In this document: positions 3,293-10,499 of the stretch, one piece after another | Layout: every line of letters begins with the position of its first letter | How positions within the stretch are numbered: the first letter of the stretch is position 1 | Origin: Candidatus Shapirobacteria bacterium | GTDB lineage: Bacteria > Patescibacteriota > Microgenomatia > UBA12405 | Direction of reading: 5' to 3' | Length of the DNA: 39,391 bases | Assembly: GCA_041659325.1 (NCBI GenBank) | Contig: JBAZYN010000001.1 | Span: 197,428 to 236,818 of the forward strand | Translations under genes and position numbers: made by a program | Notes under the pieces: model-generated | What the model was told of the DNA's origin: nothing | Database searches by the model: none | The model's input: the letters and a program-made list of their open reading frames with translations, nothing else

Positions 3293-3339
3293 TTTATCAT
3301 AATTTATAAAATGTCGATGTCAACGTGTATAATTCGTCC

Positions 3340-4326
3340 ATGTCAGACGTTATCTCCCTTTTCAAAAAACTAATCTCTACCCCCTCGGTCACCGGTAATG
3401 AGCAAAACATCTGTCTCGAGGTCTACAACATGCTGACAGATGAAGGTTTTTCGACCAAAAAGATTCCTGTGTCGGACAACCGATTTAACATTTTTGCTAG
3501 TCTTGGTATACCAAAAGTTATTCTATCTGCGCACCTTGATACGGTATCACCATATATCCCACCAAAAGAAACCGATACTCATATTTATGGTCGTGGTTCC
3601 TGCGACACTAAATCCTGTGTCGCCTCCATGATTACGGCCGCCGTTAAGTGCAAGGAAGACGGACTATCAAATTTTGGCTTAATCTTTACGGTTGGCGAAG
3701 AGGAAGATTTTGACGGTGCCATAAAAATAAAAGAATCGGGATTAAAAATTCCCTTTATAATCGTTGGCGAACCAACCTCATTGGAAATCGTAAATGGTCA
3801 CTTTGGCATGCTGGTATTGAAAATTACCGCCCCGGGCAAAGCGGCTCATAGCAGTACCCCCGAAAAAGGTATTAACGCCATAGATAGTTTAATTTTAGCC
3901 ATCAAGCAGATTCAGTCAATTCCCATTTATCCCGATTCACTGATGAGTTTGGTAAAAATTGATGGTGGAATCGCCGACAATATAATTCCGGCTGAATCAA
4001 ATTGCACCTTTTCGTTTAGGATTCATCCGCAGGATACCAACGATTATCAAAAGATTATTAAGTCAGTTATCGGCTCCTCGTACAAAATAACAAAGATTTT
4101 GGATGCTTCCAGTGTTTATTCGAAAGTCCCGAATGAATTGTCATTTATAAAAAAACAAAAAATAGTCAAGTATGGTACTGATTTGTCGATATTAAAAAAT
4201 GGAATTGTTCTTGGGCCGGGTGATATCAAATACGCCCACGGGGATAATGAACAAATTAAGAAAAGTGAACTAAAAAGAGCGGTTAACGTTTATTATGAAA
4301 TAATTAAGAATTTTGTGGTAAAATAA
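3340..4326 (+). CDS. M20 family metallo-hydrolase (ArgE/DapE-like)
   Basis: SAHLDTV, GRGSCDTK, GEEED, VGEP, GKAAHSS and AHGDNE motifs; ATG 3340 lies 6 nt after TATAAT. Confidence 0.9.
   Translation: MSDVISLFKKLISTPSVTGNEQNICLEVYNMLTDEGFSTKKIPVSDNRFNIFASLGIPKVILSAHLDTVSPYIPPKETDTHIYGRGSCDTKSCVASMITAAVKCKEDGLSNFGLIFTVGEEEDFDGAIKIKESGLKIPFIIVGEPTSLEIVNGHFGMLVLKITAPGKAAHSSTPEKGINAIDSLILAIKQIQSIPIYPDSLMSLVKIDGGIADNIIPAESNCTFSFRIHPQDTNDYQKIIKSVIGSSYKITKILDASSVYSKVPNELSFIKKQKIVKYGTDLSILKNGIVLGPGDIKYAHGDNEQIKKSELKRAVNVYYEIIKNFVVK
4316..4324 (+). promoter_or_regulatory. Extended -10 promoter for a leaderless His leader peptide
   Basis: TGgTAAAAT lies 7 nt before ATG 4332, the same geometry seen at many other genes in the window. 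Confidence 0.65.
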
Positions 4327-4331
4327 CCCCA

Positions 4332-4376
4332 ATGACCAATCAAATAAGATCAATTGCTCATCATCACGCTAACTAG
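4332..4376 (+). CDS. Histidine attenuator leader peptide MTNQIRSIAHHHAN
   Basis: ATG 4332 to TAG 4376 with consecutive CAT CAT CAC at 4359-4367, directly followed by mutually exclusive hairpins. Confidence 0.8.
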   Translation: MTNQIRSIAHHHAN

Positions 4377-4432
4377 TTGTTGGCGGATTTGATTGTGTCA
4401 AAATTACCGCCAACAAATGGCGGTTCTTTTTT
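4367..4432 (+). promoter_or_regulatory. Transcription attenuator (protector, antiterminator, terminator)
   Basis: 1:2 CGCTAAC 4367-4373 / GTTGGCG 4379-4385; 2:3 TTGTTGGCGG 4377-4386 / CCGCCAACAA 4407-4416 (perfect 10 bp); 3:4 ACCGCCA 4406-4412 / TGGCGGT 4418-4424 followed by TCTTTTTT. Confidence 0.8.
4406..4432 (+). terminator. Intrinsic terminator (attenuator 3:4)
   Basis: 7-bp GC-rich stem, 5-nt loop and T-tract. Confidence 0.8.
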
Positions 4433-4488
4433 GTACTTTTTAGGTCGAAATTTAAAGGGAAGCGCCTAAATTTTGCCTAAAAATACAA

Positions 4489-4513
4489 TCCCGATTGCGA
4501 AGCGTCATCGGGA
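4489..4513. repeat. TCCCGA...TCGGGA-type palindrome
   Basis: TCCCGAT-tgcgaagcgtc-ATCGGGA; similar arms at 8862-8883 and 29869-29890. Confidence 0.55.
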
Positions 4514-4603
4514 AGGCTCATTTACTTACATGGTGGAACGTAGGAGTTTTGGTAAAAATTTAAACGTCCCAACCACGTCGGTTTGCTTTAGCAAACTATA
4601 CTT

Positions 4604-4677
4604 GGTGGTATTAGCTCAATGGTTAGAGCGCTGCTCTGTGAAAGCAGAGGTTGCCGGTTCGACCCCGGTATACCACC
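4604..4677 (+). tRNA. tRNA-His(GTG)
   Basis: 8-bp acceptor GGTGGTAT/ATACCACC including the G-1:C73 identity pair; anticodon arm CTGCT-CTGTGAA-AGCAG; T-loop GGTTCGAC; full CCA not encoded. Confidence 0.97.
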
Positions 4678-4913
4678 CAACAGTATCCGAAATTATTATA
4701 ATCTACATGACGAGATCCAGTAATTGTTTGTAATTTTTGATAAATCTGTTTTCTTAAAACATTATATAGTCATCATCCCCCCAAGCGGTGGATTGTTAAC
4801 CAATATCATTGCCTTAAACTAGGCTGACTACCTTCAGGTAAATGTTTATAAAATAATATTGTTTGGCATTACTATAATGCCATTAAGAAAAGATGTAAAA
4901 TTGATGCGTAAGA

Positions 4914-6386
4914 ATGCAAACATATAAACAGTTACGAAGAACAAGAAAGCTTAAGAAGTTTGGGAAGAAGGTTGTTATTGCCATTCTGTTTTTAGGTATA
5001 AGTTATCTGCTTTCCCTATTGTCGTTCTATATTTATACCCAACTGTCACAGATTTTACAGCCGGCAGAAAAAGGATTTTTGGGATTTGCCATTATTGGTG
5101 TAATCGCAGGACTTGTTGCCGTACTTGTTTCATTTGCCAATAAGCGACTGGTTCTAACTGTGGTTATTTCGTTTCTTGTTGACTGCCTGGTTAACAGTAT
5201 CATTTTATTTTCCAGCTTAGGCACAAAAGTTATCTCGTTTCTCCCTGGTTTAATGGTCGGAATGTTTACAGTGGTTGGCTCTGGATATTTATTAAGAAGA
5301 AAATTCGGTTTTCTTGATATAAGTATTCTGTCCCCGCGTTGCCTGAAAGAAAAGGATTACAAAAAATATGCTCTCGCCCGAAAACTATTAGAAAACCCGA
5401 ATAAAATTACTATGACAATCTTGAATGATGCTTGCGGACTTTTTCAAGATAAAGACGTTGATCCAAAAATTGGCGCAGTATTAAAGGAGGTGGACAATTT
5501 TACCAGAGCACTAGGTGGTGATGTAGCGGGGTTTATTGTGGCCCACATAAAAACAGAGACAGAAAAAGATGAAGAAAAAAAAGAGAAAGTATTGTTTTTT
5601 ATTGATCTTATAAACGATATAAAAGAAGAAATTGACTTCGCCTTTGTTAGGATAGGATCTGGCGAAGCCAAAAACTTTGTTGATCATCCGATAAAGCAGG
5701 CTCATCACAGTTATATAGCTAGTGCAGCGACATCGGCTAATAACCCGTCTATTGTGGCCACCATTGTGGCCGGATCGGTAATTGCTACCAGTGCCGCGGG
5801 AATTATTCCTGGTCTTCCCCTTATATCACAAAATGTTATCCACCCGAAAGAAATACAATCTACTCAGGGAATAGTCAGACCTACGCAAACCGCGACTCCA
5901 ACAATTTTGCCAACAGAGACACCGACGCCCAAACCCACAAACAAACCAGCCATAATTTTTTCAGCCGTCGAGAAAACTTTTTTCGTCTCCGCTCCCCAAG
6001 AAGGAACCATTTTTACCGTTAACGCCAGCGGAACATACAGGTTTACTATTATTGGAGGAGCAGCAGAGATTTCTCCGCAAAAATCCCAACCAAATTACCC
6101 TGAGCAATGGGGATGGCAAACAAAATTGTTGATTTATAAAAACCGAGCCATTGCATTTGGCCCAACTCTTTCGGGATTAGGTAATCCTCTTGTAGGGTGG
6201 ATTTATCTCATGGGTGATCCAAATTTAAAGCCAACAGCCGCAGAAGCCGAACAATCCGGCAAAGGGAAATACATAGACCTTACTTTGAATAAAGATGATT
6301 ATCTGATCTTTATTGTTGATGATTCAGATGGTGGTTTTGTAGATAATAACGGAGGCGTATCCCTCCAAGTTCAAAAGGGAGTCTAA
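4914..6386 (+). CDS. Hypothetical membrane-anchored surface protein
   Basis: Basic N-terminus, about 4 hydrophobic segments, a charged middle region, another hydrophobic stretch, a PT-rich linker and a beta-rich C-terminal domain. Confidence 0.7.
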   Translation: MQTYKQLRRTRKLKKFGKKVVIAILFLGISYLLSLLSFYIYTQLSQILQPAEKGFLGFAIIGVIAGLVAVLVSFANKRLVLTVVISFLVDCLVNSIILFSSLGTKVISFLPGLMVGMFTVVGSGYLLRRKFGFLDISILSPRCLKEKDYKKYALARKLLENPNKITMTILNDACGLFQDKDVDPKIGAVLKEVDNFTRALGGDVAGFIVAHIKTETEKDEEKKEKVLFFIDLINDIKEEIDFAFVRIGSGEAKNFVDHPIKQAHHSYIASAATSANNPSIVATIVAGSVIATSAAGIIPGLPLISQNVIHPKEIQSTQGIVRPTQTATPTILPTETPTPKPTNKPAIIFSAVEKTFFVSAPQEGTIFTVNASGTYRFTIIGGAAEISPQKSQPNYPEQWGWQTKLLIYKNRAIAFGPTLSGLGNPLVGWIYLMGDPNLKPTAAEAEQSGKGKYIDLTLNKDDYLIFIVDDSDGGFVDNNGGVSLQVQKGV

Positions 6387-6418
6387 AAATGCGATTATGT
6401 TTAGTTTGGGCTAAATAT

Positions 6419-6427
6419 TGATATAAT
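6419..6427 (+). promoter_or_regulatory. Extended -10 promoter of the GNAT-hisS leader
   Basis: TGaTATAAT, a perfect extended -10. Confidence 0.7.
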
Positions 6428-6516
6428 TGAGTTTAATTAAACCGGTCGGGTTCAAACTTGTCCAGTTTCGAACATCAGCTGGGAGACGACCCCACAACTT
6501 TATAACTTTCTACTTT

Positions 6517-6612
6517 ATGAACTTTATAAACTTTAATACTTATTCGCATCATACCCATACCGTGGTCACCATTCCGCGGGGTATTGCAGTGACCATCCTC
6601 AAATCTTTCTAG
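6517..6612 (+). CDS. Putative His attenuator leader peptide MNFINFNTYSHHTHTVVTIPRGIAVTILKSF
   Basis: CAT CAT ACC CAT at 6547-6558; lies upstream of a terminator and the GNAT-hisS operon. Confidence 0.6.
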   Translation: MNFINFNTYSHHTHTVVTIPRGIAVTILKSF

Positions 6613-6633
6613 AAAAGATAAATATTAACTTTT

Positions 6634-6659
6634 AAACCCCCGCAATCGCGGGGGTTTTT
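6634..6659 (+). terminator. Intrinsic terminator in the hisS operon leader
   Basis: AAACCCCCGC-AATC-GCGGGGGTTT followed by TTCGTTTCTTT; left arm also complementary to ATT-cc-GCGGGG at 6571-6581. Confidence 0.85.
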
Positions 6660-6763
6660 CGTTTCTTTGGGTCAAATAATAAACCGAATGGTGAAATATT
6701 TTGACCTAAGACACAATCCGATAGCTTAAGATAATCGGGATAAATTTATTTAACAAAATTATT

Positions 6764-7462
6764 ATGATCAAAGAAATATCATTATTAACATTATCTCCGG
6801 AGACAATTATCGCCTCCGATCAAATTAGTCAAATTGCGATTTTATATGCCGATGTTTTTCGGGGACCACCATGGAACGAAGCGGTAAAATGCAATTCTTG
6901 CAAAAAATACGAAGAGGAATCGGTTGCCGTTAATTCTCCATGTCCTTGTGGTGGTTATTTCAGTGAAGCTTATCCTTTGTCGGAAACCAAGGGTTATATT
7001 GAGTCAGAATCTCAAATACCTGGCTTCCGTCTCACACTTGTGAAAGATAAGGAACAAGTCGTGGGTTTCGCCTGGAGTTACCTAACCACTCCGGCAAAAC
7101 TTGTTGTTGCCAAATGGTCAGATCCACAAAATCAACAGTCCATACTTAAAGTTCTTGAAAGAAATGATTTAACTCCTAATACTCAATTTCGCTATTTCTG
7201 TGAAATTGGCATTGCTCCGGAATATAGAGGTCTCGGTCTTTCAAACTATCTTTCCAAACAGGTTGTGGGCTCTGAACCAACTCTGTTTAGAACCAACATT
7301 GGCACCAAAATGATGGCGGTCGGAGCGACTCTTGGCTTTGAACAAATAATGGGGCCGGAAGTAACTGTCGATCGTTCAGGTGGCATAATTATTCCCACCG
7401 GGAAAATATTTAACCGCCTTGATTCCGAAAGAGAGGATCGGGTTCTATTTTTAAAATCATAA
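6764..7462 (+). CDS. GNAT-family N-acetyltransferase with a Cys-rich insert
   Basis: YADVF..PPWNE N-terminal motif, VVGFAWSY, and acetyl-CoA motif EIGIAPEYRGLGLS; CxxC...CPC cluster. Confidence 0.75.
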   Translation: MIKEISLLTLSPETIIASDQISQIAILYADVFRGPPWNEAVKCNSCKKYEEESVAVNSPCPCGGYFSEAYPLSETKGYIESESQIPGFRLTLVKDKEQVVGFAWSYLTTPAKLVVAKWSDPQNQQSILKVLERNDLTPNTQFRYFCEIGIAPEYRGLGLSNYLSKQVVGSEPTLFRTNIGTKMMAVGATLGFEQIMGPEVTVDRSGGIIIPTGKIFNRLDSEREDRVLFLKS

Positions 7463-7470
7463 AAATTTCA

Positions 7471-8754
7471 ATGCTACAATCAACTATGAATCAACTAATT
7501 CAACCGGTTAAAGGTACCCGTGATTTTTATCCCGAAGATCAGGCCTTTCAAACTTGGTTTTTCCAAAAAGTCAGGGAAGTTTCTGAAACCTTTGGGTTTC
7601 AGGAATACAACGGTCCGTTTCTGGAGCCTCTGGAACTTTATGCCGCCAAATCAGGTGAGGAGCTGGTTAAAAAACAAGCTTTTACTTTAACTGATCAGTC
7701 GGGAAAAATTCTAGCTCTAAGGCCGGAAATGACACCCACTCTCGCCCGCATGATTGCCCAAAAAGACGGTGAATTAACCTTTCCCGTAAAGTGGTGGACT
7801 TATGGCTCACGTTACAGATACGAAAAACCCCAGAAAGGTCGTGGACGGGAGTTTTTTCAGTGGGATTGCGATATTATCGGTACCGACGGATTCGAGGCCG
7901 ATGCCGAAGCAATTGCCATCGCCGCTACCATGTATAGAAAATTAGGATTAACCTCCACAGATGTAAAAATAAAAATCAATGATCGCCAACTTCTTCAAGG
8001 TGAACTTTTAAATATCGGAGTCCCGGAAAATCTAATTGTTAATGTTTTTAGAATTGCTGATAAAAAAGACAAAGTTACCGAAGTGGATTTCAAAGAAATG
8101 CTTTTAGAAACCGGACTAACCGAGTCACAGACGGATATGGTTAAGAAAACTCTTGAAGACAAAGATCTTTATAAAAAATCTGAATGGCTTTTAAAAATTT
8201 TTGATCTTTTAAAAATTTATGGAATTTCCGATTTTGTAGAATTTGATCCCGGGATTGTTCGTGGACTTGAATATTACACCAGAACCGTTTTTGAAGGTTG
8301 GGATGTAAACGGAGAATTTCGGGCCATCTGGGGCGGTGGCAGATATGACAATCTAGTTGCTGATGTCGGTTCCAAAAACAAAGTACCCGGAGTTGGCTTT
8401 GCAATGGGGGATATGGTTATTGCCGAAGTTTTGAAACAATATAAAAAATATCCGGTCCTTTCTGCAAATAAATCCAAGGTCTTAGTAACTGTATTTTCAC
8501 CGGAACTTTTTAACAGTTCACTCGAAGTCACAAACATACTTCGAAAAAATAACATAAATACCGAAATCTACCTTAACCCCGACATAAAAATTGATAAACA
8601 ATTAAAATATGCCGATAAAAAGGGTATTCCTTATGTTATAGTTCTCGGCCCTGATGAAATTAAAGCCGACTCGGTTACGATAAAAAATATGTCTTCTGGT
8701 ACTCAAACTACAGTCAAGAAAGAAGACGTGGTTAATTCAATAACTCCAAGTTGA
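7471..8754 (+). CDS. hisS: Histidine--tRNA ligase
   Basis: KGTRDF, LRPEMT, RYEKPQKGRGREFFQ, RGLEYYT and GGGRYD motifs plus anticodon-binding domain; start may be ATG 7486. Confidence 0.97.
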   Translation: MLQSTMNQLIQPVKGTRDFYPEDQAFQTWFFQKVREVSETFGFQEYNGPFLEPLELYAAKSGEELVKKQAFTLTDQSGKILALRPEMTPTLARMIAQKDGELTFPVKWWTYGSRYRYEKPQKGRGREFFQWDCDIIGTDGFEADAEAIAIAATMYRKLGLTSTDVKIKINDRQLLQGELLNIGVPENLIVNVFRIADKKDKVTEVDFKEMLLETGLTESQTDMVKKTLEDKDLYKKSEWLLKIFDLLKIYGISDFVEFDPGIVRGLEYYTRTVFEGWDVNGEFRAIWGGGRYDNLVADVGSKNKVPGVGFAMGDMVIAEVLKQYKKYPVLSANKSKVLVTVFSPELFNSSLEVTNILRKNNINTEIYLNPDIKIDKQLKYADKKGIPYVIVLGPDEIKADSVTIKNMSSGTQTTVKKEDVVNSITPS

Positions 8755-8854
8755 GCGCTAGTCACCGTTATCGAGCTATTCAATAATTTATACATGCGTA
8801 TCTGTTAAAGTTGTACCGAAAAATCGAACGTATTTTGAGTTATAATCATTCTCA

Positions 8855-8913
8855 CCCCGCTCGTCCCGTCGCCGGTCGGGACGTAAATCGCGCCTGTCCG
8901 CCTTTGGAGGGGG
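8855..8913. repeat. Composite palindromic element
   Basis: CCCCGC...GCGGG outer arms interrupted by CGTCCCG-N8-CGGGACG (8862-8883) and CCTGTCCGCCTTTGGAGGG (8893-8911). Confidence 0.6.
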
Positions 8914-9015
8914 TTCGATTGAAAATTATTCAAAAAAACAAATAGCCCAAACCAAGATTCGATAGTGTAAACCAAATCATTATTTGTAAGACCCCATCAA
9001 TACCATAGATATTAT

Positions 9016-9821: not shown

Positions 9822-10460
9822 CTATATTCTATCAAATTTGTACTTTTTTGACTCGTTTTCAATGGTTGTTTCCTGTCCGTGCCCGGAAAGAACCAAAGTC
9901 TCAGGAGACAGCTCCATCAATTTCCGTATACTTTTAAAAATTTCCTCAGTTGAGCCATATTTAAAGTCGGTCCTACCGCGCAGGGCAAAAAACAAAGTAT
10001 CTCCAGAAAACAACAAGTTTTCTTTTGGACAATAAAAGCATACTCCTCCCGGGGTATGGCCGGGGGTTTTAATAATTTTTATTGTATTAGCCCCCAAATG
10101 AATTTCGTCTATTTGATCTAAGTCTGTATCAATATTTTCAATATTCGGTGTTGCCACATTTTTGTTAAGAAAATAGCCTGCGGTTTGATTTTGTCTCTTC
10201 AGTAAAAACATGTCTCTTTTACTGCAATATATGGGAACATTAAACATCAGCTTCATATCAAGCGCGGCCATCACATGATCAAAATGTCCGTGAGTTAAAA
10301 AAACTCCCGTCGGTTTCAAACTATTTTTTTGTATCTCTTCTACAATATAATCAGCTTCGTCAGCCGGATCGATAATAAAACACTTTCGCTCCTCACTCTC
10401 CCAAAGAAGATAACAGTTTGTTTGCATTTCCCCCAATACTAAAGTCCTATATTCCAACAT
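9822..10460 (-). CDS. MBL-fold metallo-hydrolase (glyoxalase II-like)
   Basis: THGHFDH, TPGHTPG, FSGDTLF and GHG motifs; ATG 10460 lies 7 nt after TGgTAAAAT. Confidence 0.92.
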   Translation of the reverse strand: MLEYRTLVLGEMQTNCYLLWESEERKCFIIDPADEADYIVEEIQKNSLKPTGVFLTHGHFDHVMAALDMKLMFNVPIYCSKRDMFLLKRQNQTAGYFLNKNVATPNIENIDTDLDQIDEIHLGANTIKIIKTPGHTPGGVCFYCPKENLLFSGDTLFFALRGRTDFKYGSTEEIFKSIRKLMELSPETLVLSGHGQETTIENESKKYKFDRI

Positions 10461-10499
10461 GTTCTTAATTTTACCAACCATTTTAGATATAATGACAGT

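What the first reader, a model, noticed from the sequence alone, without database searches (positions are those of the whole stretch)
6517..6662. Second His-responsive leader controlling GNAT-hisS
Seen: a 31-codon leader with His-His-Thr-His. A protector stem GTGGTCAC 6562-6569 / GTGACCAT 6589-6596 sequesters ATT-cc-GCGGGG 6571-6581, which can alternatively pair with CCCCGC-AAT 6638-6646, the left arm of the terminator. Inference: a ribosome stalled at the His codons would cover the protector's 5' arm and free the antiterminator. In many Firmicutes aminoacyl-tRNA synthetase genes use T-boxes; no T-box consensus is evident here.
Basis: partly seen in the sequence, partly recalled or inferred. 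Interest (0 to 1): 0.7.

Follow-up and report, generated by a model that had tools for sequence, protein, structure and literature searches.

The report
Histidine-sensing leader before GNAT-hisS operon
A short histidine-codon-rich mini-gene and a switchable terminator hairpin sit in front of the histidyl-tRNA synthetase operon of this tiny Shapirobacteria (CPR) bacterium and are conserved in its relatives, so it is most likely a classic ribosome-stalling "attenuator" that raises hisS expression when histidine runs short, the first such leader I could find for this group of bacteria.

Summary
There is a 31-codon ORF at 6517-6612 (HHTH at 6547-6558), a strong intrinsic terminator (stem 6634-6657 plus T-tract), and an upstream GCGGGG segment (6576-6581) that can pair with the terminator's left arm. 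No T-box is present.

Eleven related loci from four lineages share a GNAT-like gene at 46-81% identity. All carry the same element just upstream of GNAT-(M20 deacylase)-hisS-rpmE-prfA, usually just after tRNA-His.

- Every complete copy keeps an ATG or TTG exactly 10 codons before a His cluster (HHTH, HxH or HHH).
- Segment 2 (CCRCGGGG) is kept although it is read in different frames.
- Its complement lies in the terminator, with one compensatory G:C to A:U change.
- A segment directly after the His codons pairs with segment 2.

Folding with a ribosome parked on the last His codon gives the antiterminator in all ten complete copies.

The best-conserved protector is CCGUGG (6560-6565) paired with CCGCGG (6574-6579).

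It is a new member of a known kind: a leader-peptide attenuator of an aminoacyl-tRNA synthetase operon. It is not in Rfam, and I found no report for CPR.

The parts
3325..4326 (+). M20 (ArgE/DapE-family) deacylase gene. In relatives its homologue lies between GNAT and hisS, inside the attenuated operon.
   Evidence: Pfam Peptidase_M20 plus M20_dimer. NCBIfam ArgE/DapE family, below the cut-offs. 36% identity to the M20 of L086. Operon maps.
4332..4376 (+). Leader 1 ORF (MTNQIRSIAHHHAN*) with its own terminator, upstream of tRNA-His. This is the sister element and is given here as context.
Evidence: Sequence. It is conserved in relatives: L081 ...VAHHHAN* (read), L086/L093 MSNKTLCLNHHHANL*, L216 MLTKTLRSSHHHTNF* and L218 MKTYANIAHHHAD*.
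4605..4678 (+). tRNA-His (GTG). In relatives it lies directly upstream of leader 2.
   Evidence: ARAGORN and Rfam. tRNA-His lies next to leader 2 in L081, L084, L086-L090, L093, L216 and L218.
4914..6386 (+). 490-aa membrane ORF with no family hit. It appears to be inserted between tRNA-His and leader 2 in this genome only.
   Evidence: No Pfam hit. Absent from all related loci.
6419..6427 (+). Candidate extended -10 promoter TGATATAAT. A second -10-like TATAAC lies at 6501-6506, 10 nt before the ATG.
   Evidence: Read from the sequence. Many genes of the window have a TATAAT-like box just before the ATG and no Shine-Dalgarno sequence. Unverified.
6443..6495 (+). Degenerate copy of the 3' half of tRNA-His (T-arm-like hairpin). 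It is a relic of the ancestral junction between tRNA-His and leader 2.
   Evidence: It aligns with the tRNA-His 3' half and with the tandem pseudo-3'-halves of L081 and L084. It forms a stable hairpin in the MFE fold.
6517..6612 (+). Leader ORF of 31 codons: MNFINFNTYSHHTHTVVTIPRGIAVTILKSF*.
   Evidence: The frame is open in 10 of 10 complete relatives, the other two frames carry stops in 10 of 10, and the start codon is always 10 codons before the first His.
6547..6558 (+). Regulatory His codons CAT CAT ACC CAT.
   Evidence: A His cluster is conserved as HHTH, HCH/HRH or HHH. Synonymous changes occur inside it: CAT to CAC in L092 and ACC to ACA in L084.
6560..6565 (+). Segment 1 (CCGUGG), which pairs with segment 2. 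It would be covered by a ribosome stalled on the His codons.
   Evidence: RNAalifold consensus. 98% of cells paired. Invariant at two four-fold degenerate codon positions. Replaced by CCCUGC in L218.
6562..6569 (+).
   Evidence: 78% of cells paired and 3 pairs with changes on both sides across relatives. It is the alternative MFE in L084, L089, L141 and L216.
6574..6581 (+). Segment 2 (CCGCGGGG). It pairs either with segment 1 or with segment 3.
   Evidence: Conserved in the complete copies and in the partial L215/L217 (CCACGGGG in L092), although it is read in different frames.
6589..6596 (+).
6603..6619 (+). Small spacer hairpin (UCUUUC/GAAAGA) spanning the leader stop codon.
   Evidence: MFE fold. 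Also present in L084. Absent in the shorter leaders.
6634..6643 (+). Terminator left arm. CCCCGC at 6638-6643 is segment 3.
   Evidence: The 2:3 pairing is 100% kept, with G:C changed to A:U in L092.
6648..6664 (+). Terminator right arm (segment 4, GCGGGGGTTT) and U-tract.
   Evidence: The terminator helix is conserved with two compensated pairs.
6664..6745 (+). Copy of the genome's 'tag plus hairpin' repeat, inserted between the terminator and the GNAT start. It is absent in L081 and L084.
   Evidence: Alignments. The same element follows the terminator of leader 1 at 4436-4520.
6764..7462 (+). GNAT-fold acyltransferase with a Cys-rich insert. It is the first regulated gene.
   Evidence: Pfam is only weak (E = 0.06). 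AlphaFold2 gives pLDDT 89. All top Foldseek PDB hits are GNAT N-acetyltransferases. 22 homologues were found.
7471..8754 (+). hisS, histidyl-tRNA synthetase.
   Evidence: Pfam tRNA-synt_His plus HGTP_anticodon.

Best explanation
This is a ribosome-mediated (leader-peptide) transcription attenuator that senses charged tRNA-His and controls read-through into GNAT-hisS. In relatives it controls GNAT-M20 deacylase-hisS-rpmE-prfA.

When His-tRNA is plentiful:
- The ribosome translates the short ORF without pausing.
- Segment 2 (CCGCGGGG, 6574-6581) is then covered by the ribosome. Alternatively it is re-captured by segment 1 (CCGUGG, 6560-6565) or by the flanking hairpin 6562-6569/6589-6596.
- The terminator 6634-6657 forms and transcription stops at the U-tract.

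When His-tRNA is scarce:
- The ribosome stalls on the CAU codons (6547-6558) and physically covers segment 1.
- Segment 2 is left free to pair with CCCCGC (6638-6643) as soon as that is transcribed.
- The terminator cannot form, and RNA polymerase reads into the operon.

Shown here: the sequence elements, their conservation, the alternative pairings and their covariation, and the genomic linkage to tRNA-His and hisS.

Inferred: translation of the ORF, stalling, coupling of transcription to translation, and the His-dependent outcome.
For: 1. All elements are present and the terminator is strong.

2. The element is conserved at the orthologous place in 11 related loci from four lineages. These were found through the GNAT-like protein plus one true hit of a DNA-pattern scan (L141). 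A covariance model built from nine copies finds exactly one copy per locus. That includes three copies not used for training: L215, L217 and L218 (E = 6.6e-5).

3. ORF logic.
   - The start codon lies exactly 10 codons before the first His in 10 of 10 complete copies.
   - The His frame is open in 10 of 10, and both other frames carry stops in 10 of 10.
   - A His cluster is always present (HHTH, HCH, HRH or HHH).
   - The rest of the peptide drifts freely with no 3-periodicity, as expected for a leader peptide.

4. RNA-level constraint.
   - CCGCGGGG is kept although it is read as P-R-G in one clade and A-G in the other.
   - ACC GTG G after the His codons shows no synonymous variation across the nine aligned copies (L218 has a different segment 1).
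   - It pairs with segment 2 in the RNAalifold consensus (98% of cells paired).
   - In L218 a different sequence at the same place (CCCUGC) pairs with GCGGGG.

5. Antiterminator 2:3.
   - It is paired in 100% of cells, with a compensatory G:C to A:U in L092.
   - In L092 the terminator itself uses a different register. The 2:3 complementarity is therefore not just a by-product of segment 2 copying segment 4.

6. Folding.
   - Without a ribosome, the leader MFE sequesters segment 2.
   - With the RNA masked to 12 nt past the last His codon and ending after segment 3, the unconstrained MFE is the 2:3 helix. This holds in all 10 complete copies, at -10 to -18 kcal/mol.

7. Context.
   - In L081, L092 and L215 the GNAT ATG is only about 25-30 nt after the U-tract, leaving little room for a separate promoter.
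   - The element lies next to tRNA-His and before hisS.
   - A second leader with conserved HHH precedes tRNA-His.

8. Lack of a Shine-Dalgarno sequence is normal for this genome.
Against: - There is no expression, ribosome-profiling or reporter data, and no RNA runs hold this sequence.
- There are only 2-3 His codons. In one clade the middle codon is Cys or Arg.
- The two closest relatives start the ORF with TTG and have no SD.
- Most paired positions are invariant, so covariation support is thin. There are one or two compensatory events per helix, from 9-11 sequences in about four lineages.
- At equilibrium the terminator is more stable than the antiterminator. The switch must therefore be kinetic, as in known attenuators.
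- Segments 2 and 3 are 40-56 nt apart, further than in the E. coli trp or his leaders.
- In the window a 100-nt repeat-derived spacer with -10-like boxes separates the terminator from GNAT. An independent promoter is therefore possible there.
- Transcription-translation coupling has not been shown in CPR bacteria.
Confidence: 0.72

Rival explanations
1. Translation-independent attenuator. The same terminator/antiterminator switch would be set by a trans factor that binds the conserved CAU..ACCGUGG / CCGCGGGG region. Candidates are uncharged tRNA-His, HisRS (autoregulation, as E. coli ThrRS does on its own mRNA) or another RNA-binding protein. The ORF would then be incidental.
For: The strongest nucleotide conservation lies in RNA segments, not in the peptide. 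The element is physically fused to tRNA-His in relatives. The first regulated gene product has a GNAT fold whose top structural match is a tRNA acetyltransferase.
Against: No T-box or other known RNA family is detected. No Stem-I or specifier architecture is present.

This model does not explain four observations: the frame is open in 10 of 10 copies; the start codon stays exactly 10 codons before the His cluster in all lineages; the His codons are kept through synonymous changes (CAT to CAC); and segment 1 always lies within a ribosome footprint of the last His codon, even where its sequence differs, as in L218.
Confidence: 0.1
2. An ordinary intrinsic terminator that ends the upstream transcription unit (tRNA-His in relatives, the 490-aa ORF in the window), followed by a separate GNAT-hisS promoter. 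The short ORF and the GCGGGG repeat would have no regulatory role.
For: The hairpin is a textbook terminator and sits downstream of a gene or tRNA in every locus. AT-rich spacers contain -10-like boxes. The sub-threshold Rfam hits are driven mainly by the terminator.
Against: A plain terminator does not need 120 nt of conserved upstream sequence with a fixed-phase His ORF. Nor does it need a second copy of its own right arm that covaries with its left arm.

In several relatives only about 25-30 nt separate the U-tract from the GNAT ATG. The element stayed with GNAT-hisS, not with tRNA-His, when the 490-aa block was inserted in this genome.
Confidence: 0.1
3. A genuine small-protein gene (25-31 aa, His/Thr-rich, possibly metal-binding) with its own terminator.
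For: The ORF is conserved and open, with a conserved H-x-H/HHTH motif.
Against: The N- and C-terminal parts are not conserved at the protein level. The conserved CCGCGGGG block is read in two different frames. Substitutions show no codon periodicity. The HTV motif is lost in L218 while the RNA logic is kept.
Confidence: 0.05

Closest known systems
Classical leader-peptide attenuators of aminoacyl-tRNA synthetase genes. Examples are E. coli pheST (pheM leader), the candidate attenuators of Streptomyces trpS2 and leuS (PMC1262725), and the predicted histidine leader peptide upstream of the Bacillus hisS paralogue and hisZ (Naville & Gautheret 2010, PMC2965389).
   Same: A short ORF with clustered cognate codons, mutually exclusive 1:2 / 2:3 / 3:4 pairings, an intrinsic terminator just before the regulated gene, and a target that is the synthetase for the sensed amino acid.
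   Different: - No sequence relationship to any of them.
- A different phylum (Candidatus Shapirobacteria, CPR/Patescibacteria), for which I found no report.
- Only 2-3 His codons.
- No Shine-Dalgarno sequence.
- In relatives the ORF starts 1-7 nt after the CCA end of tRNA-His.
- The operon also carries a GNAT and an ArgE/DapE-type deacylase, rpmE and prfA.
Histidine operon leader hisL (Rfam RF00514, His_leader) of Enterobacteria.
   Same: His codons in a leader peptide set the choice between terminator and antiterminator, so both work as sensors of charged tRNA-His.
   Different: It scores 21.2 bits against a gathering score of 49, so it is not a member. hisL has seven consecutive His codons and controls biosynthesis genes. 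This element has HHTH (or HxH, HHH) and controls hisS in an organism of a group that generally lacks amino-acid biosynthesis (general knowledge of CPR, not tested here).
T-box riboswitch (Rfam RF00230), the usual regulator of hisS in Firmicutes.
   Same: The same regulatory goal (more synthetase when tRNA-His is uncharged) and the same terminator/antiterminator output.
   Different: No T-box hit even at E <= 10. The leader is about 150 nt, with no Stem I, specifier loop or T-box sequence. Sensing would be through a translating ribosome rather than direct tRNA binding.

Membership tests
Leader-peptide (ribosome-mediated) transcription attenuator | A short ORF upstream of the regulated gene with a cluster of codons for the sensed amino acid. 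| tested here: met
   The 31-codon ORF at 6517-6612 has HHTH. A His cluster is present in all 11 related copies.
Leader-peptide (ribosome-mediated) transcription attenuator | An intrinsic terminator between the leader ORF and the regulated gene. | tested here: met
   A 10-bp G+C-rich stem plus U-tract at 6634-6664. The helix is conserved with compensated pairs.
Leader-peptide (ribosome-mediated) transcription attenuator | Mutually exclusive antiterminator (2:3) and anti-antiterminator (1:2), with segment 1 inside the footprint of a ribosome stalled at the regulatory codons. | tested here: met
   1:2 is 98% paired and 2:3 is 100% paired with one compensatory change. Segment 1 starts 2 nt after the last His codon. 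Masked folding gives the 2:3 helix in 10 of 10 complete copies.
Leader-peptide (ribosome-mediated) transcription attenuator | Conservation of the ORF phase and regulatory codons across related genomes, with the peptide otherwise free to vary. | tested here: met
   The start is 10 codons before the first His in 10 of 10. The frame is open in 10 of 10, and the other frames are closed in 10 of 10. There is no codon periodicity.
Leader-peptide (ribosome-mediated) transcription attenuator | Read-through increases when the cognate charged tRNA is limiting (experimental). | not testable with these tools
   No RNA-seq runs hold the locus. The organism is uncultivated.
Rfam His_leader (RF00514) | Score at or above the family gathering threshold (49 bits). 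| tested here: not met
   21.2 bits, E = 0.37.
Rfam Phe_leader (RF01859) | Score at or above the gathering threshold (55 bits). | tested here: not met
   28.5 bits, E = 0.011. The aligned part is mostly the terminator.
T-box riboswitch (RF00230) | A match to the T-box covariance model (Stem I, specifier, T-box/antiterminator bulge). | tested here: not met
   Not listed among matches with E <= 10 for 6300-6850, nor at gathering score in the whole window.
GNAT acyltransferase (the first regulated gene) | GNAT fold with the acetyl-CoA-binding motif A (R/Q-x-x-G-x-G/A). | tested here: met
   Sequence match is weak (Pfam E = 0.06; PDB profile E about 0.4). The AF2 model (pLDDT 89) matches GNAT structures at Foldseek E of 1e-6 to 1e-5. 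The motif RGLGLS is present. The substrate is unknown.

The most novel reading that the evidence does not exclude
The element is one half of a two-stage histidine-starvation circuit built around tRNA-His, in a bacterium from a group that generally cannot make histidine (not tested here).

- Stage one: an HHH leader attenuates transcription into tRNA-His itself.
- Stage two: a second leader ORF begins 1-7 nt after the tRNA's CCA end in several relatives. 3' maturation of tRNA-His would therefore create the (near-)leaderless mRNA of the second attenuator.
- That second attenuator gates a salvage-and-translation operon of GNAT acyltransferase, ArgE/DapE-type deacylase, HisRS, L31 and RF1.

This would be an attenuator-controlled tRNA gene plus a tRNA-processing-coupled leader peptide. 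I found no description of either arrangement.
Probability: 0.3. Interest if true: 0.75.

Novelty: new member of a known kind. Interest (0 to 1): 0.6.

Why it matters
Leader-peptide attenuation needs a ribosome that closely follows RNA polymerase. A conserved, well-formed attenuator in Shapirobacteria would therefore be indirect evidence for two things in CPR/Patescibacteria. One is that transcription and translation are coupled. The other is that these reduced genomes, which have few recognisable regulators, still sense amino-acid supply through tRNA charging.

It also defines a small histidine-responsive gene set: tRNA-His, HisRS, a GNAT, an ArgE/DapE-type deacylase, L31 and RF1. That set gives a functional lead for two uncharacterised enzymes, possibly histidine salvage or (de)acylation.

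Finally, it provides a new covariance model that could be used to annotate this leader in metagenomes.

Tried and rejected
I could not scan the rest of this genome for further copies, nor check whether his biosynthesis genes are absent.

2. hisS-based search of genome contigs.
   - It returned 80 loci, the closest at 68% identity.
   - None had the GNAT, the 490-aa ORF or a His leader near hisS.
   - Synteny around hisS is different there, so this route gave only the negative result that the leader is clade-restricted.

3. DNA-pattern scan of metagenome contigs with ATACCGTG-N(8-12)-CCRCGGGG.
   - Only L141 was a true instance.

4. Dispersed palindromic repeat, as earlier notes describe for this genome: rejected. 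There is a single copy in the window, at the orthologous position in relatives.

5. Long ORF 6427-6612 (61 aa from TTG): rejected, because relatives have in-frame stops upstream of the conserved ATG/TTG.

6. Equilibrium folding with a masked ribosome still prefers the terminator. The switch only appears when the RNA is truncated before segment 4, so it is kinetic.

7. No RNA-seq runs hold the locus.

8. One GNAT homologue (P0013) had no retrievable DNA.
Full report
**1. What is in the window**

hisS (7471-8754) follows the 232-aa ORF.

- The ORF from ATG 6517 to TAG 6612 encodes MNFINFNTYSHHTHTVVTIPRGIAVTILKSF*. The codons CAT CAT ACC CAT lie at 6547-6558.
- The hairpin AAACCCCCGC-AATC-GCGGGGGTTT at 6634-6657, followed by a U-rich tail, is by far the best terminator-like site in 4300-9000.
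- GCGGGG at 6576-6581 repeats the terminator's right arm, so it can pair with CCCCGC at 6638-6643.
- The region folds far better than shuffled sequence (z = -4.85 and -3.7).
- hisS is unambiguous.
- The 232-aa protein has only a weak Pfam GNAT hit (E = 0.06). Its AlphaFold2 model (pLDDT 89) matches GNAT N-acetyltransferases throughout the top of a PDB fold search.
- Rfam finds only three tRNAs in the window, one of them tRNA-His at 4605-4678.
- A permissive Rfam scan of 6300-6850 finds no T-box. It gives only sub-threshold hits, including Phe_leader (28.5 bits against 55) and His_leader (21.2 against 49), most of which lean on the terminator.

**2. Relatives**

A hisS-based search of species-representative genomes returned 80 loci.
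- None has the GNAT-like gene, the 490-aa ORF or any His-rich leader next to hisS.
- In those Shapirobacteria/Microgenomates, hisS follows a secreted protein gene with a short spacer.

The GNAT-like protein has a small family of 22 proteins, and its contigs told the story.
- In every case with enough DNA the order is: (leader 1) - tRNA-His - leader 2 - terminator - GNAT - M20 deacylase (or a nucleoside hydrolase) - hisS - rpmE - prfA.
- The window is a rearranged version. Its M20 gene (3325-4326) is 36% identical to the operon M20 of L086 and belongs to the ArgE/DapE family. It lies just upstream of leader 1.
- In the window, the 490-aa ORF separates tRNA-His from leader 2.
- Window 6443-6495 is a degenerate copy of the tRNA-His 3' half. 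It matches the tandem pseudo-3'-halves seen after tRNA-His in L081 and L084. The 490-aa block therefore looks like an insertion at the tRNA 3' end.

**3. The leader ORF is conserved as an ORF, not as a protein**

Ten complete copies and one 5'-truncated copy were recovered.

| Copy | Leader peptide |
|---|---|
| window | MNFINFNTYSHHTHTVVTIPRGIAVTILKSF |
| L081 | (TTG) KILNFKLFNHHTHTVVTIPRGVDVT |
| L084 | (TTG) KILNFKLVWHHTHTVVTTPRGIVVTMSQSF |
| L092 | MKIVNCKFCLHHTHTVTQNPRGVFVF |
| L086 | MKNKINFIKNHCHTVGPKTAGFLAA |
| L093 | MKNKIKFIKNHCHTVGPKTAGFLAA |
| L089 | MKNKIKFIKNHRHTVAPKTAGFLAA |
| L141 | MKIKIKITLNHRHTVGTKTAGFLSA |
| L216 | MKIKTNFIKNHRHTVAVNTAGFLAA |
| L218 | MKTKNININYHHHPALSAGNFSMS |

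- In all ten the start codon lies exactly 10 codons before the first His.
- The His frame is open in all ten, and each of the other two frames has at least one stop in all ten.
- By composition an open frame has a probability of about 0.2 per sequence.
- Variable sites show no third-position excess (5, 7 and 8 at codon positions 1, 2 and 3).
- The C-terminal halves of the two main clades are unrelated as peptides.
- Only the His cluster is kept, through synonymous changes: CAT to CAC in L092, and ACC to ACA between His codons in L084.

This is the pattern expected of a regulatory leader peptide and not of a functional small protein.

**4. The RNA switch is conserved**

- *Segment 2.* The octamer CCGCGGGG (CCACGGGG in L092) is present in every copy. 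It is read as Pro-Arg-Gly in the window's clade and as Ala-Gly in the other, so the constraint is on the RNA.
- *1:2 and terminator.* RNAalifold on nine copies predicts two helices. One is CCGUGG, starting 2 nt after the last His codon (window 6560-6565), paired with CCGCGG (6574-6579). The other is the terminator. For these two helices together, 95% of cells are paired, against 43-60% when partners are slid. The codons ACC and GTG show no synonymous variation across the nine aligned copies, although both end in four-fold degenerate positions. Both of those positions lie in this helix.
- *2:3.* The antiterminator GCGGGG:CCCCGC is paired in 100% of cells. In L092 it is ACGGGG:CCCCGU, a compensatory change. 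L092's terminator uses a different register (AAAGCCC/GGGCUUU). The 2:3 complementarity is therefore maintained in its own right.
It is the predicted MFE in some copies. It overlaps segment 1, so the two are alternative ways of holding segment 2.
- *L218.* In the most divergent copy the sequence after HHH is CCCUGC. It forms a 6-bp hairpin directly with GCGGGG (-10 kcal/mol). This is the same logic with a different solution.

**5. Does the geometry work?**

- A ribosome with the last His codon in its A site should cover roughly 12 nt downstream of that codon.
- I masked the RNA to that point and ended it just after segment 3. The unconstrained MFE then contained the 2:3 helix in all ten complete copies (-10 to -18 kcal/mol).
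- Without the mask, the leader MFE sequesters segment 2 in all of them.
- With the full transcript the terminator wins at equilibrium. The choice must therefore be kinetic, as in the E. coli trp and his leaders (established knowledge).
- In the shorter leaders the stop codon lies 12-13 nt after segment 2, so a terminating ribosome would still cover part of it. In the window and in L084 five extra codons move the stop further away, and re-formation of 1:2 would have to do the job.

**6. Is read-through needed for GNAT-hisS expression?**

- In L081, L092 and L215 the GNAT ATG is only about 25-30 nt beyond the U-tract.
- In L093, L216 and L218 the leader ATG is 7, about 6 and 1 nt after the CCA end of tRNA-His. 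There the leader must be co-transcribed with the tRNA.
- In the window a 100-nt spacer (6664-6763) separates the terminator from GNAT. It is a copy of the genome's 'tag plus hairpin' repeat, and the same repeat follows the terminator of leader 1.
- That spacer and the AT-rich DNA contain -10-like boxes, so an additional promoter cannot be excluded.
- Genes of this window mostly lack Shine-Dalgarno sequences, and many have a TATAAT-like box a few nt before the ATG. The absence of an SD before the leader ORF is therefore unremarkable.
- Candidate promoters for the window's leader are TGATATAAT (6419-6427) and TATAAC (6501-6506). Neither is verified.

**7. Specificity**

The covariance model built from nine copies finds exactly one copy in each GNAT locus.
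- That includes the non-training copies L215, L217 and L218 (E = 6.6e-5).
- It finds none in the hisS loci that lack the GNAT, and no second copy in the window.
- Leader 1 (4332-4376, MTNQIRSIAHHHAN*) is not detected by it and is a separate element. It too is conserved upstream of tRNA-His: L081 ...VAHHHAN*, L086/L093 MSNKTLCLNHHHANL*, L216 MLTKTLRSSHHHTNF* and L218 MKTYANIAHHHAD*.
- Two independent His-codon leaders bracketing tRNA-His and preceding hisS make histidine the obvious signal.

**8. What is known**

- Classical attenuators upstream of synthetase genes are established for pheST and predicted for Streptomyces trpS2 and leuS (PMC1262725).
- A histidine leader peptide was predicted upstream of a Bacillus hisS paralogue and hisZ (PMC2965389).
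- Full-text searches that combined Patescibacteria or Candidate Phyla Radiation with attenuator, leader peptide, riboswitch or T-box returned nothing relevant.
- The element fails the Rfam His_leader, Phe_leader and T-box thresholds.

I therefore file it as a new member of a known kind. It is a leader-peptide attenuator in a new phylum with a new target operon. Its unusual features are very few His codons, no SD, and fusion to the 3' end of tRNA-His.

**9. Verdict**

One refinement applies: the primary protector is the pairing of 6560-6565 with 6574-6579.

- Confidence that this is a ribosome-mediated His attenuator: about 0.72.
- Main rivals: a trans-factor-operated switch (about 0.10), a plain terminator plus incidental ORF (about 0.10), and a small-protein gene (about 0.05).
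- Nothing here is experimental. The organism is uncultivated and no RNA data hold the locus.

Noticed in passing
window 4332-4678; L086 3510-3782; L093 3547-3827; L216 1374-1572; L218 1067-1238: A second leader ORF with conserved HHH (window MTNQIRSIAHHHAN*), its own GGCGG-type terminator/antiterminator, and an extended -10 box (TGGTAAAAT) 7 nt before the ATG, so it is probably leaderless. It lies upstream of tRNA-His in all lineages. It would be an attenuator controlling a tRNA gene.
   Followed up: partly
L141 5150-5370: In this relative, leader 1 reads HHY (CAT CAT TAC) instead of HHH. No tRNA-His lies between leader 1 and leader 2, so the cassette may be decaying or the tRNA may have moved.
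   Followed up: no
window 4436-4520 and 6664-6745; L141 5492-5640; L086 3600-3705; L085 1-72: The same 'tag plus hairpin' repeat (AGGTC..AAATTTTGCC..ACAATCCCGAT..ATCGGGA) begins right at the U-tract of both attenuator terminators, in the window and in relatives. It is absent after terminator 2 in L081 and L084. Whether it carries a promoter or processing site is unknown.
   Followed up: partly
window 6443-6495; L081 850-1000; L084 79-140: Degenerate, sometimes tandem, copies of the 3' half of tRNA-His with a replaced T-arm hairpin (GTCCCGATGCAATCGGGAT). They lie between tRNA-His and leader 2 and look like scars of integration at the tRNA 3' end. In the window the 490-aa ORF block (4679-6440) lies between the tRNA and such a scar.
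   Followed up: partly
L086 2666-3782 and L093 2367-3827: Two tRNA-His genes flank a 235-aa minus-strand ORF (plus a 109-aa ORF in L093). This may be another insertion that duplicated the tRNA.
   Followed up: no
L218 1238-1242; L093 3827-3837; L216 about 1575-1584: The leader 2 ATG starts 1-7 nt after the encoded CCA end of tRNA-His. 3' processing of the tRNA would therefore leave a leaderless or nearly leaderless leader mRNA.
   Followed up: partly
window, upstream of most ORFs (for example 10500, 14583, 35950, 9822-10481): Most genes lack a Shine-Dalgarno motif. Many have a TATAAT-like box 5-12 nt before the start codon, which suggests widespread leaderless or very short-leader mRNAs in this genome.
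   Followed up: no
window 6764-7462 and homologues P0002-P0022: The GNAT-fold protein has invariant Cys residues (C43, C60, C62, in the CNSC...CPCGG insert), an invariant PWNE motif, and no Pfam or NCBIfam assignment. Its best structural match is the GNAT domain of tRNA(Met) cytidine acetyltransferase. In relatives it is always paired with an ArgE/DapE-type deacylase.
   Followed up: partly
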